Of a stretch of 32,000 nt of DNA, positions 27,292 through 28,068 are shown piece by piece. The first letter of the stretch is position 1, and each line of letters begins with the position of its first letter. A model generated the notes under the pieces. It was not told the origin of the DNA. It made no database searches and saw only the letters and a list, made by a program, of their open reading frames with translations. The translations under genes were made by a program, and so were the position numbers. The DNA lies in NCBI GenBank assembly GCA_016699265.1, contig CP064967.1, positions 90,001 to 122,000 on the forward strand. The letters run 5' to 3'. This DNA comes from Candidatus Saccharimonadota bacterium (GTDB lineage Bacteria; Patescibacteriota; Microgenomatia; UBA1406; GWC2-37-13).

Positions 27292-28068
27292 ATGAAAACA
27301 GTTAAGATATCTATTTTTTTCGGATTCTTATGTTTGATGACGCCTTTATTTACCTTCACCTATGCTCAGATTTCCTCATATAGCATAGCTCGATATATTG
27401 AGGTTAAAGATGAGAAGGTACCTTCCGGCTCACTGGTTTCACAGAATCCTGATGGAAGCTATTCACTTAGCAGAAAAGCCTACGACCCACAAACCAAGGG
27501 CGTAATAGTCGCCGATCCTTCAATCTATGTAAAGTCGGACAATCCTAACAAAAAGTATGCACTTACAAGCTCGGCAGAGGCTAGGGTTCTAGCAAACACA
27601 TCCAATGGACCGATAAAAAGAGGCGACCTGCTAAGAACCTCAACAACAGCAGGCGTAGCGGTTCGAGCCGATAAGTCGGGATATGTTGTTGGGACTTCAC
27701 TTCAAGACTACACAAATACAAATCGTACACAAAATGTGCTATTAAGTGTCGAGCTAAATATCCATTACGCGCCTTCCCCGTCAACTCTAGGATCTTCCTT
27801 GACCGATATATTCAGCTTATCTGCCTTAGCATCATACGAACAACCCCTAATTGTTTTCAAGTATGTGATTGCTGCAATAATCACGCTGCTCTCCTTCATT
27901 TTTGGATTCTTTTATTTTGGAAGAATAGCGAGTAAAGGAGTGGAGGCGTTGGGAAGAAATCCTCTCGCAAGTCGGGCTATTCAGTTCGGAATCATTATGA
28001 ACGTATTAATCACGTGTGTGATTATTGGTGTTGGAATTCTGGTCTCATTATTTATTATTCGTAGTTAA
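27292..28068 (+). CDS. Signal peptide, extracytoplasmic domain homologous to the fibre C-terminus, and a C-terminal two-helix hairpin resembling ATP synthase subunit c
   Basis: [26 protein letters not shown] is a signal peptide. 27376-27768 aligns with 16004-16390. The hairpin is [25 protein letters not shown] - [21 protein letters not shown] - [25 protein letters not shown], with an R-N-P loop (27955-27963). It is the first gene of the ATPase operon. Confidence 0.7.

What the first reader, a model, noticed from the sequence alone, without database searches (positions are those of the whole stretch)
27292..28068. ATP synthase c-subunit-like hairpin lacking the ion-binding carboxylate and fused to a secreted fibre-type domain
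The first gene of the ATPase operon encodes a signal peptide, an outer domain of about 150 aa and a C-terminal helix-loop-helix. The loop, [17 protein letters not shown], resembles the conserved c-subunit loop (bacterial G-A-A-R-Q-P, mitochondrial A-R-N-P-S-L). Counting from R-N-P, the 18th residue is the position of E. coli Asp61 and mitochondrial Glu in helix 2. Here it is Cys (tgt at 28015-28017, context NVLITCVII), and neither helix contains any Asp or Glu. Helix 1 also lacks the GxGxGxG packing motif. A c-like protein that cannot bind H+ or Na+ in the usual way and carries a large external domain would be incompatible with a canonical rotating c-ring.
Basis: partly seen in the sequence, partly recalled or inferred. 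Interest (0 to 1): 0.75.

Follow-up and report, generated by a model that had tools for sequence, protein, structure and literature searches.

The report
ATPase c-subunit lacking its ion site
In hundreds of species of ultra-small (CPR/Microgenomates) bacteria, the membrane rotor protein of the "ATP synthase" has lost the acidic residue that carries protons and gained a phage-fibre-like domain on the cell surface, and its operon has no proton-channel subunit, so this machine probably burns ATP to do something at the cell surface instead of making ATP from an ion gradient.

Summary
Gene 27292-28068 encodes a signal peptide, a 140-aa secreted beta domain and a C-terminal two-helix hairpin. It sits 8 nt upstream of b-like, delta, alpha, gamma and beta genes.

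The hairpin is a genuine but divergent homologue of F-type subunit c:
- Profile matches are weak but hit almost only c subunits, in one register.
- hhalign gives 84.5% probability.
- All 50 best PDB fold matches are c subunits.

Cys242 aligns with E. coli Asp61. It is not a one-off mutation: that position was never Asp or Glu in 118 homologues or in 144 representatives clustered at 50% identity.

The order X-b-delta-alpha-gamma-beta-epsilon recurs in about 60 genomes. No subunit a or normal c lies within 10 kb. The b-like stalk lacks its membrane helix in 9 of 62 loci.

The outer domain has the fold of phage decoration and tail-fibre end domains. It recurs in a giant repetitive protein in this window.

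Best reading: a rotary ATPase derived from the F-type, not coupled to ions, that hydrolyses ATP and whose c-like ring carries an extracellular crown. Whether subunit a is absent from the whole genome, and whether a ring forms, could not be tested. I found no paper describing this family.

The parts
27233..27262 (+). Promoter-like site (TTGCAA, 18 nt, TATATT) about 30 nt upstream of the ATG. Weak evidence only.
   Evidence: Consensus scan. There is no terminator-like site between X and the b-like gene.
27292..28068 (+). Gene X: signal peptide + secreted beta domain + c-subunit-like hairpin (258 aa).
   Evidence: It has 267 homologues and 637 representatives clustered at 50% identity.
27292..27366 (+). 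Signal peptide, aa 1-25 ([25 protein letters not shown]). Cleavage after TYA is inferred.
   Evidence: AF2 helix 3-20. The family alignment shows a hydrophobic N-terminus ending in A-Q.
27367..27786 (+). Extracytoplasmic domain, aa 26-165. Beta fold shared with phage decoration/cement proteins and tail-fibre or preneck-appendage end domains.
   Evidence: Foldseek against PDB, E about 1e-4: 8pkh, 9ocb, 8hdt_G, 6qyy_B, 3gqh_A, 5wk1_K, 7kmx_a. BFVD, E down to 8e-12. Pfam PF23982 matches 17 of 33 family members, but not the window protein itself.
27862..27921 (+). Membrane helix 1, aa 191-210 ([20 protein letters not shown]). No GxGxGxG motif. Ser201 is conserved.
27922..27984 (+). Cytoplasmic loop, aa 211-231 ([21 protein letters not shown]). 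G-R-N-P is invariant. Glu218 matches E. coli E37.
27985..28059 (+). Membrane helix 2, aa 232-256. Asn237 (28000-28002) is near-invariant. Cys242 (28015-28017) occupies the carboxylate position.
28077..28703 (+). b-like peripheral-stalk protein: one N-terminal membrane helix plus a long coiled coil. No Pfam family match.
   Evidence: The membrane helix is absent in 9 of 62 related loci.
28708..29181 (+). Delta/OSCP subunit.
   Evidence: PF00213, 4.4e-11.
29191..30678 (+). Alpha subunit. Very divergent: 28% identity to E. coli alpha and below all NCBIfam cut-offs.
   Evidence: The database copy (492 aa) starts at the ATG at 29200.
30666..31541 (+). Gamma subunit.
   Evidence: PF00231, 1.1e-18.
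31555..32000 (+). Beta subunit, N-terminal part. It runs off the end of the window.
   Evidence: Full-length relatives carry GGAGVGKT and GERAREG.
16034..16388 (+). Copy of the X ectodomain near the C-terminus of a giant repetitive protein. It is split by a frame break at about 16287-16309. A link to X is possible but not shown.
   Evidence: HMM of the X ectodomain: E 7e-13 on ORF 11507-16309, and it continues into ORF 16287-17135.

Best explanation
Gene X is a descendant of F-type ATP synthase subunit c. It has lost the ion-binding carboxylate and gained an N-terminal extracytoplasmic domain of the phage decoration/fibre-end fold. It takes the place of both Fo ion-path genes (a and c) at the head of an otherwise F-type operon: b-like, delta, alpha, gamma, beta, epsilon.

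The complex is therefore most likely not an ion-driven ATP synthase or an ion pump. It is more likely an ATP-hydrolysing F1 motor docked, through the invariant G-R-N-P loops, on an oligomer (probably a ring) of X hairpins. The outer face of that oligomer carries a crown of beta domains. ATP hydrolysis would turn or flex this membrane-spanning part and so act on something outside the cell, possibly a surface fibre that carries the same domain.

Shown here:
- c-subunit homology and fold.
- Family-wide absence of the carboxylate.
- The conserved operon without a.
- Intact catalytic motifs in beta.

Inferred:
- Ring formation.
- Docking of gamma/epsilon on the loop.
- Hydrolysis-only operation.
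- Any action outside the cell.
For: c homology and register.

No acidic residue:
- None at position R+20 in 118 homologues or in 144 representatives.
- No Asp or Glu anywhere in either membrane segment in 143 of 144 representatives.

Topology: a signal peptide plus positive charges in the loop give N- and C-termini outside and the loop inside, as in subunit c.

Synteny:
- X-b-delta-alpha-gamma-beta-epsilon is found in about 60 of 82 loci from different species. The median X-to-b spacer is 30 nt, and it is 8 nt in the window.
- The same order holds for a Parcubacteria variant with a different N-terminus.

No subunit a:
- Upstream genes vary between loci.
- No a-type or c-type motif occurs in 1.24 Mb of flanks.
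- No PF00119 match among 44 multi-TM ORFs within 10 kb.

F1 looks competent for hydrolysis:
- Beta has GGAGVGKT in 51 of 52 loci and the GER..EG glutamate.
- Alpha keeps its P-loop and the SVTRVG arginine.
- Epsilon is 83-124 aa, the N-terminal domain only, so it lacks the helical inhibitory domain.

The loop G-R-N-P and Glu at R-4 are invariant or nearly so. This is as expected if the loop still contacts gamma/epsilon.
Against: - Absence of subunit a is shown only for the operon and 10-kb flanks. No whole genome could be searched.
- Ring assembly and rotation are not tested.
- Sequence-level significance of the c match is marginal: Pfam 17.5 bits against a cut-off of 24, and Foldseek E >= 0.027 because the hairpin is short.
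- In 9 of 62 loci the b-like stalk has no membrane helix. A classical rotor/stator pair in the membrane is then hard to picture.
- The Parcubacteria variant adds a cytoplasmic HTH-like domain and a third membrane helix to every subunit. This would crowd the face where F1 should dock.
- Standalone X paralogues without adjacent ATPase genes exist, so X may have a role independent of F1.
- A near-invariant polar residue (Asn, rarely His or Ser) lies 5 residues before the old carboxylate position. It could form an unconventional binding site.
Confidence: 0.6

Rival explanations
1. X is a working ion-translocating c subunit with an unconventional binding site. The site would be built from the conserved Asn/His at R+15, Thr/Ser at R+19 and Ser at R-21. 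It would work with a subunit a encoded elsewhere in the genome.
For: - Asn237 is N in 115 of 118 homologues, and N, H or S in 144 of 144 representatives.
- Ser201 and Thr241 are conserved polar residues inside the membrane segments.
- Whole genomes could not be searched for subunit a.
- Carboxylate-free Na+ sites exist in other membrane proteins (own knowledge, e.g. the LeuT Na2 site).
Against: - Every characterised rotary ATPase uses a membrane carboxylate (own knowledge; reviewed in PMC3692424 and PMC2914638, listed).
- Subunit a is missing from the operon in about 60 species, and nothing a-like lies within 10 kb.
- Position R+15 lies about 140 degrees round the helix from the canonical site and nearer the cytoplasm. 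This fits helix packing better than an ion site (inference).
- b lacks a membrane anchor in some lineages.
Confidence: 0.15
2. X is a fixed membrane anchor or scaffold, not a rotor. Its oligomer would tether F1 through both the central stalk and the b-like stalk to the membrane and cell wall. The ATPase would act as a non-rotary switch, or on a cytoplasmic partner.
For: - b-like proteins without a membrane helix in 9 of 62 loci would have to attach to something other than subunit a.
- The bulky ectodomain could be lodged in the wall.
- The Parcubacteria variant carries an extra cytoplasmic domain.
Against: Gamma, epsilon, delta and a peripheral stalk are all retained. This makes most sense if the rotor/stator distinction is still used. 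There is no direct evidence either way.
Confidence: 0.15
3. X is an independent surface protein that uses a c-derived hairpin only as a membrane anchor. It would merely be co-transcribed with a soluble or otherwise anchored F1-like ATPase.
For: - A standalone X paralogue subfamily occurs without ATPase genes nearby: L032, L033, L054, L058, L059, L066, L075, L080.
- It sits in the same upstream synteny as operon-linked copies.
- The ectodomain also occurs in giant surface-type proteins.
Against: - Adjacency to the ATPase genes is conserved across Microgenomates and Parcubacteria despite about 40% sequence identity and different N-termini.
- The hairpin is the most conserved part: mean column identity 67% against 44% for the whole protein.
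- The most conserved motif is the F1-facing loop.
Confidence: 0.08
4. The operon is a decaying remnant of an ATP synthase, and the Cys is part of that degeneration.
For: CPR genomes are reduced. Alpha is very divergent: 28% identity to E. coli, and several NCBI records name it 'hypothetical'.
Against: - All genes are intact and catalytic motifs are conserved.
- There are hundreds of species-level homologues with invariant columns.
- Two full operons are present in some genomes.
Confidence: 0.02

Closest known systems
F-type ATP synthase subunit c (AtpE; Pfam PF00137, COG0636)
   Same: - Two-helix hairpin with termini outside and a cytoplasmic loop.
- The motif G-x-x-V-E-x-h-x-R-(Q/N)-P-x-A.
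- Gene position directly before b-delta-alpha-gamma-beta-epsilon.
- Fold superposes at 1.2-2.4 A on solved c subunits.
- IMG names four family members COG0636.
   Different: - No carboxylate at the D61/E65 position, nor anywhere in the membrane helices.
- No GxGxGxG motif.
- A signal peptide and a 140-aa extracytoplasmic domain at the N-terminus.
- No subunit a gene alongside.
- Below the Pfam gathering score (17.5 against 24 bits).
Mycoplasma Type 2 / Type 3 'F1-like X0' ATPases (Beven et al. 2012, PMC3369863), including the M. mobile gliding motor
   Same: - F1-derived alpha/beta/gamma/epsilon-like ATPase with fast-evolving sequences.
- Joined to a membrane sector that is not Fo, in a host-dependent bacterium with a reduced genome.
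- Thought to hydrolyse ATP for a surface-related task.
   Different: - Per the paper's abstract, the mycoplasma clusters carry three proteins with no similarity to known proteins, two with 3 and 12 membrane helices, and no recognisable delta, b or c. Here delta, a b-like stalk and a c-derived hairpin are kept.
- The window's alpha scores below both family cut-offs: glide_MMOB1660 314 against 600 bits, MSC_0619 224 against 520 bits.
c subunits in which one hairpin has lost its carboxylate (A. woodii c1, V-type and archaeal duplicated proteolipids)
   Same: They show that a c-type hairpin without the carboxylate can sit in a rotor ring (4bem; PMC9171764, listed).
   Different: In those rings other hairpins keep the carboxylate, and subunit a is present, so ion transport persists. 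Here no hairpin in the operon has one.
N-type ATPase (atpDCQRBEFAG)
   Same: A second, divergent F-like operon type with unusual small membrane proteins.
   Different: N-ATPases keep a and a carboxylate-bearing c, lack delta, and have AtpQ/AtpR and a different gene order (PMC4154653). None of this applies here.
Phage decoration/cement proteins and tail-fibre or preneck-appendage end domains (lambda gpD/SHP class, phi29 gp8.5 base, phi29 gp12 C-terminal domain, XM1 gp53)
   Same: The fold of the X ectodomain. Pfam PF23982, PF09956 and PF22758 match family members.
   Different: Here the domain is cellular, secreted by a signal peptide and fused to a membrane hairpin. Trimer formation, typical of the phage proteins, is untested.

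Membership tests
F-type ATP synthase subunit c (PF00137) | Hairpin of two membrane helices with the c-subunit fold | tested here: met
   AF2 hairpin pLDDT 92. All 50 best PDB matches are F-type c subunits, with TM up to 0.85.
F-type ATP synthase subunit c (PF00137) | Conserved polar loop R-(Q/N)-P preceded by Glu at R-4 | tested here: met
   G-R-N-P is invariant in 118 of 118. E/D at R-4 in 118 of 118. It aligns to E. coli E37 and R41-Q42-P43.
F-type ATP synthase subunit c (PF00137) | Score above the curated Pfam gathering threshold | tested here: not met
   17.5 bits against 24, E=0.0049. 13 of 33 members match at E up to 0.1, best 9.4e-4. No NCBIfam match.
F-type ATP synthase subunit c (PF00137) | Ion-binding Asp/Glu in the middle of helix 2 (E. 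coli D61) | tested here: not met
   Cys242 in the window. I/V/L/C/F/A/Q in 118 homologues. No D/E in 144 representatives.
F-type ATP synthase subunit c (PF00137) | Gly-rich GxGxGxG packing motif in helix 1 | tested here: not met
   Only Gly at R-17 and R-12 are conserved. Phe-rich instead.
F-type ATP synthase subunit c (PF00137) | Assembles into a homo-oligomeric ring that binds gamma/epsilon | not testable with these tools
   Only single chains can be modelled here.
Canonical F1Fo ATP synthase operon | alpha, beta, gamma, delta, epsilon present | tested here: met
   Pfam matches in the window. Beta and epsilon found in related loci. Catalytic motifs present.
Canonical F1Fo ATP synthase operon | Membrane-anchored subunit b | tested here: inconclusive
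   The window protein has one membrane helix and a coiled coil, but no family match. 9 of 62 relatives have no membrane helix.
Canonical F1Fo ATP synthase operon | Subunit a (PF00119) with the stator Arg, encoded with c | tested here: not met
   Absent from the operon in about 60 loci. No a-type motif in 1.24 Mb of flanks. No PF00119 among 44 multi-TM ORFs within 10 kb. The rest of each genome was not searchable.
Mycoplasma F1-like X0 ATPases (Type 2/3) | alpha-like protein reaching the NCBIfam cut-offs for glide_MMOB1660 or MSC_0619, and a cluster lacking delta/b/c | tested here: not met
   314 against 600 bits and 224 against 520 bits. Delta and b-like genes are present.
N-type ATPase | Order beta-epsilon-Q-R-a-c-b-alpha-gamma, with AtpR and no delta | tested here: not met
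   The order here is X-b-delta-alpha-gamma-beta-epsilon. alt_F1F0 models score below their cut-offs.
Phage decoration/cement and fibre-end beta domain (PF23982, PF09956, PF22758) | Fold and family-level sequence match | tested here: inconclusive
   Fold matches at E 1e-4 (PDB) and 8e-12 (BFVD). Pfam PF23982 matches 17 of 33 relatives, best 9e-6, but not the window protein at E up to 1.

The most novel reading that the evidence does not exclude
This is a new kind of rotary machine. An F1 motor, freed from ion coupling, would use ATP to spin or crank a ring of c-derived hairpins. The extracellular crown of fibre-end domains would hold, turn or remodel a giant surface fibre carrying the same domain (as encoded at 1-17135 in this window and next to the operon in L013, L014 and L019). 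That would be an ATP-driven surface appendage motor in ultra-small episymbiotic bacteria, unrelated to flagella, archaella or type IV pili.
Probability: 0.2. Interest if true: 0.95.

Novelty: new variant of a known kind. Interest (0 to 1): 0.8.

Why it matters
The membrane carboxylate of subunit c and its partner, subunit a, are the two parts of rotary ATPases regarded as indispensable. This lineage-wide family lacks both in the operon: 218 species representatives matched in one scan, and 637 sequence clusters in total. It still keeps the F1 head, both stalks and the F1-facing loop.

If confirmed, three things follow:
1. The 'F-type ATPase present' calls in metabolic reconstructions of Microgenomates and some Parcubacteria should not be read as evidence for chemiosmotic ATP synthesis or PMF generation.
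2. F1 would have been re-used for a non-bioenergetic task in a second, much larger group than the mycoplasmas.
3. It would offer a natural system for asking what a c-ring does without ions. The question is directly testable by expression and cryo-EM, because the operon has only seven genes.

Tried and rejected
- tRNA and Rfam scans of the window found nothing.
- Nine full-text literature searches found no description of this family. Terms combined Microgenomates, Patescibacteria, CPR or Levybacteria with ATP synthase, c-ring, subunit a or F1-like. The papers I read mention only presence or absence of 'F-type ATPase'.
- I looked for a hidden subunit a in four ways, and none turned up:
  - the 1.2-kb uncalled gap upstream of X in L001;
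  - regex searches for the a-type LSLRLFGN motif and for c-type R-Q/N-P...E/D in all ORFs of 83 loci;
  - Pfam on 44 multi-TM ORFs near X;
  - a check of the b-like membrane helix for a conserved charged residue that could replace the stator Arg, which showed only a conserved Tyr.
- The conserved upstream genes turned out to be lineage synteny (GH130 phosphorylases, PBP1, PfkB, aldolase), not system components.
- The hairpin profile searched against 1.84 billion representatives listed only family members in the top 150. It therefore could not show whether canonical c subunits are reached.
- I considered and rejected AtpI-like assembly factor and N-ATPase AtpR/AtpQ as identities for X. X has a different fold and motif, and the operon order is different.

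Full report
OBSERVATION. The ORF at 27292-28068 (+) encodes 258 aa. A longer reading from GTG 27205 (287 aa, as in database entry P0001) is unlikely for two reasons. Homologues of 250-270 aa align from the ATG, and a promoter-like site lies at 27233-27262, inside the extension.

An AlphaFold model built on 33 homologues (pLDDT 79.7) shows four elements:
- a signal-peptide helix (aa 3-20);
- an all-beta domain (aa 32-160);
- a short amphipathic helix (aa 168-180);
- a hairpin of two long helices (aa 185-220 and 224-257).

The loop reads [17 protein letters not shown]. Cys242 is TGT at 28015-28017, 18 residues after Pro224. The two membrane segments (aa 191-210 and 232-256) hold no Asp or Glu. 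Helix 1 has no GxGxGxG motif. The one correction is that helix 1 continues into the cytoplasm, where it carries Glu218.

The gene is followed after 8 nt by:
- a b-like protein (one membrane helix plus a coiled coil, no family match);
- delta/OSCP (Pfam 4e-11);
- alpha (4e-55);
- gamma (1e-18);
- the start of beta.

The neighbours upstream, a nucleoside diphosphate kinase and an M23 peptidase, are on the other strand.

IS THE HAIRPIN A SUBUNIT c? Each sequence test is weak on its own, but all agree.
- Pfam ATP-synt_C matches aa 194-253 at E=0.0049, 17.5 bits against a gathering score of 24. It matches 13 of 33 family members at E up to 0.1.
- A profile of the hairpin alone, searched against all PDB sequences, returns nine hits. 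Eight are c subunits; the best is the A. woodii c2 subunit at E=0.0099.
- hhalign against E. coli c plus four PDB c segments gives 84.5% probability over 68 columns.
- The hairpin modelled alone is confident (pLDDT 92). Its 50 best PDB fold matches are all F-type c subunits, with TM-scores up to 0.85 and rmsd 1.2-2.4 A. E-values stay at or above 0.027 because the domain is short.
- The alignments checked residue by residue use the same register: Glu218 on E. coli E37, R222-N223-P224 on R41-Q42-P43, and Cys242 on D61.
- The predicted topology (termini outside, positively charged loop inside) and the gene position immediately before b-delta-alpha-gamma-beta-epsilon are those of subunit c.

I conclude that the hairpin derives from subunit c. 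It does not meet the curated family threshold and lacks two of the family's hallmark features.

IS THE MISSING CARBOXYLATE REAL? Yes.
- A search of 5.8 billion proteins gave 267 homologues of 250-290 aa.
- In 118 of them, the position 20 residues after the loop Arg is I (48), V (42), L (14), C (9), F (3), A (1) or Q (1).
- Acidic residues occur only outside the membrane segments: the YEQP motif before helix 1, Glu at R-4, and Glu replacing Gln at R+9 in 18 sequences.
- A hairpin profile searched against 1.84 billion representatives found 637 clusters at E up to 0.001.
- Of the 150 best, 144 could be scored. None has Asp or Glu at R+20, and 143 have no acidic residue in either membrane segment.

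The conserved features are these:
- G-R-N-P, invariant;
- Glu/Asp at R-4;
- Arg/Lys at R-11;
- Ser at R-21;
- Thr at R+19;
- a polar residue at R+15, which is Asn in 115 of 118 homologues, and N (128), H (12) or S (4) in the representatives.

CONTEXT.
- A scan of one genome per species found 218 species with a relative, and 80 loci were kept. The named records are Roizmanbacteria, Levybacteria, WWE3, Microgenomates and Patescibacteria. Many other titles are generic placeholders.
- The window's own protein cluster is labelled Microgenomates, Woesebacteria or Roizmanbacteria. A near-identical copy lies on a 928,688-bp contig.
- In my ORF survey, the order X-b-delta-alpha-gamma-beta-epsilon holds in about 60 loci. 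Spacers are short and upstream genes vary.
- No subunit a or ordinary c is adjacent. No a-type or c-type motif occurs in 1.24 Mb of flanks. None of 44 multi-TM ORFs within 10 kb matches PF00119.
- F1 looks active. Beta carries GGAGVGKT in 51 of 52 loci and the catalytic GER..EG. Alpha keeps its P-loop and the arginine of SVTRVG.
- Epsilon is only 83-124 aa and matches only the N-terminal domain family.
- The enzyme is very divergent. Alpha is 28% identical to E. coli alpha and falls below every NCBIfam cut-off.

THINGS THAT COMPLICATE A SIMPLE ROTOR MODEL.
- In 9 of 62 loci the b-like protein starts 2-10 nt after X and has no membrane helix. Where the helix exists, it has no conserved charged residue.
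- A subfamily of 396-530 aa, labelled Parcubacteria, replaces the signal peptide with a cytoplasmic HTH_17-like domain and a membrane helix. It still heads the same seven-gene operon.
- A distinct X subfamily (loop GRNPAA) stands alone without ATPase genes. It sometimes occurs in genomes that also have a full operon, and in the same upstream synteny (PBP1 and GH130 genes) as operon-linked copies.
- Some genomes hold two full operons.

THE OUTER DOMAIN.
- Fold search against the PDB matches phage capsid decoration/cement proteins: Borrelia BB1, Sf11, Pam3, TW1, XM1 and lambda-type SHP. It also matches the base of the phi29 head fibre and the C-terminal domain of the phi29 preneck appendage, at E about 1e-4.
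- Against predicted viral structures, the best matches (E 8e-12 to 1e-9) are domains inside large tail-fibre or appendage proteins.
- Pfam PF23982 (XM1 gp53) matches 17 of 33 relatives.
- An HMM of this domain also hits the end of the giant ORF 11507-16309 in the window and continues into ORF 16287-17135 across a frame break. It also hits 1237-1407-aa proteins lying convergent to epsilon in L013, L014 and L019.

INTERPRETATION. The carboxylate has been lost across the family and subunit a is missing from the operon, while the F1-facing loop, both stalks and the catalytic sites are kept. Together these point to an F-type derivative that hydrolyses ATP without moving ions and is anchored on, or turns, an oligomer of X bearing an extracellular crown.

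The identity-level statement has high confidence. That statement is: a c-derived, ion-site-free protein that belongs to an operon without a and is conserved across CPR lineages. The mechanism is inference, and I give the whole package 0.6.

The rivals are:
- an unconventional ion site with subunit a encoded elsewhere (0.15);
- a static anchor (0.15);
- an independent surface protein (0.08);
- gene decay (0.02).

COMPARISON AND NOVELTY. The closest functional analogue is the mycoplasma 'F1-like X0' ATPase (PMC3369863). That system has lost delta, b and c altogether and uses unrelated membrane proteins. Rings containing some carboxylate-free hairpins exist (A. woodii c1, V-type proteolipids), but they always keep other active sites and subunit a. 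I found no paper on the present family in the library searched. IMG automatically labels four members COG0636. I rate it a new variant of a known kind, with a 0.2 chance that it is a new type of surface motor.

LIMITS. No whole genome could be searched for subunit a. No oligomer could be modelled. Two fold libraries were unavailable.

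Noticed in passing
window 1-17135 (+): The first half of the window looks like one giant, highly repetitive gene on the + strand. It has units of about 0.5-1.3 kb at 94-100% identity across 117-7832 and 2.59-kb units at 97-100% identity across 9309-14359. It is broken by many frame shifts, has GC 0.46-0.47 against about 0.40 elsewhere, and gives no Pfam match. 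This may be a fibre or adhesin gene damaged by assembly errors in the repeats, or a pseudogene.
   Followed up: partly
window 16270-16320: A one-base frame break (around GGAGGGTATG) splits a copy of the X ectodomain between ORF 11507-16309 and ORF 16287-17135. Read through, it gives ...GDPITPSLISGGMKATEAGKILGTAMEAY, which matches the X consensus.
   Followed up: partly
L013 13978-17691, L014 16493-20716, L019 10337-14272 (all - strand): Proteins of 1237-1407 aa with an internal X-like domain lie immediately after epsilon, convergent with the ATPase operon, in three related genomes.
   Followed up: partly
L007, L008, L009, L012, L024, L027, L046, L065, L078: The b-like stalk protein has no N-terminal membrane helix in these loci, and its start codon lies 2-10 nt after the X stop in most of them. 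The peripheral stalk is apparently not membrane-anchored there.
   Followed up: yes
L084 8001-9575, L085 1513-3087, L087 162-1490: Long X variants (442-524 aa; Parcubacteria Gr01-1014_33) carry a cytoplasmic HTH_17-like domain and a membrane helix in place of the signal peptide. In L084 and L085 a separate 73-aa MerR/HTH_17 gene lies divergently upstream.
   Followed up: partly
L032, L033, L054, L058, L059, L066, L075, L080: A standalone X paralogue subfamily (loop GRNPAA/GRNPSA, His or Gln at R+9) occurs with no ATPase genes nearby. L075 and L080 come from genomes that also hold a full operon (L055, L048).
   Followed up: partly
L025+L031 (JBPOIT), L047+L079 (DATIJS): Two complete X-type operons are present in the same genome assembly.
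   Followed up: no
L011 8541-9305; L007, L008, L009, L012, downstream of epsilon: A type IV prepilin peptidase (Peptidase_A24) gene lies next to the operon in five Roizmanbacteria-type loci. This may be lineage synteny only.
   Followed up: no
L036, L059, L061, L062, upstream of X: GH130 mannoside-phosphorylase genes (often duplicated or fused to GH43/32-like domains) and a class A PBP sit directly upstream of X in Levybacteria-type loci.
   Followed up: yes
window 20766-21701 and 23370-24311 (-): Two Beta-lactamase2-family genes flank a GT2 glycosyltransferase (21698-22378) and an NAD-dependent epimerase (22315-23319). The GT2 and epimerase ORFs overlap by 64 nt as called.
   Followed up: no
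window 26360-26992 (-): The nucleoside diphosphate kinase is 210 aa, and the Pfam NDK match is split into two stretches. It is longer than the usual size of about 140-150 aa, which suggests an insertion or N-terminal extension.
   Followed up: no
window 17147-18781 and 18785-20788 (-); 24413-24913 (+): ORFs of 544, 667 and 166 aa have no Pfam match.
   Followed up: no
NCBI records: Several NCBI records name the alpha subunit of this operon 'hypothetical protein' (e.g. QQR64038.1), while IMG calls it F-type ATPase alpha. Automated calls of 'ATP synthase' presence for these lineages will differ between pipelines.
   Followed up: no
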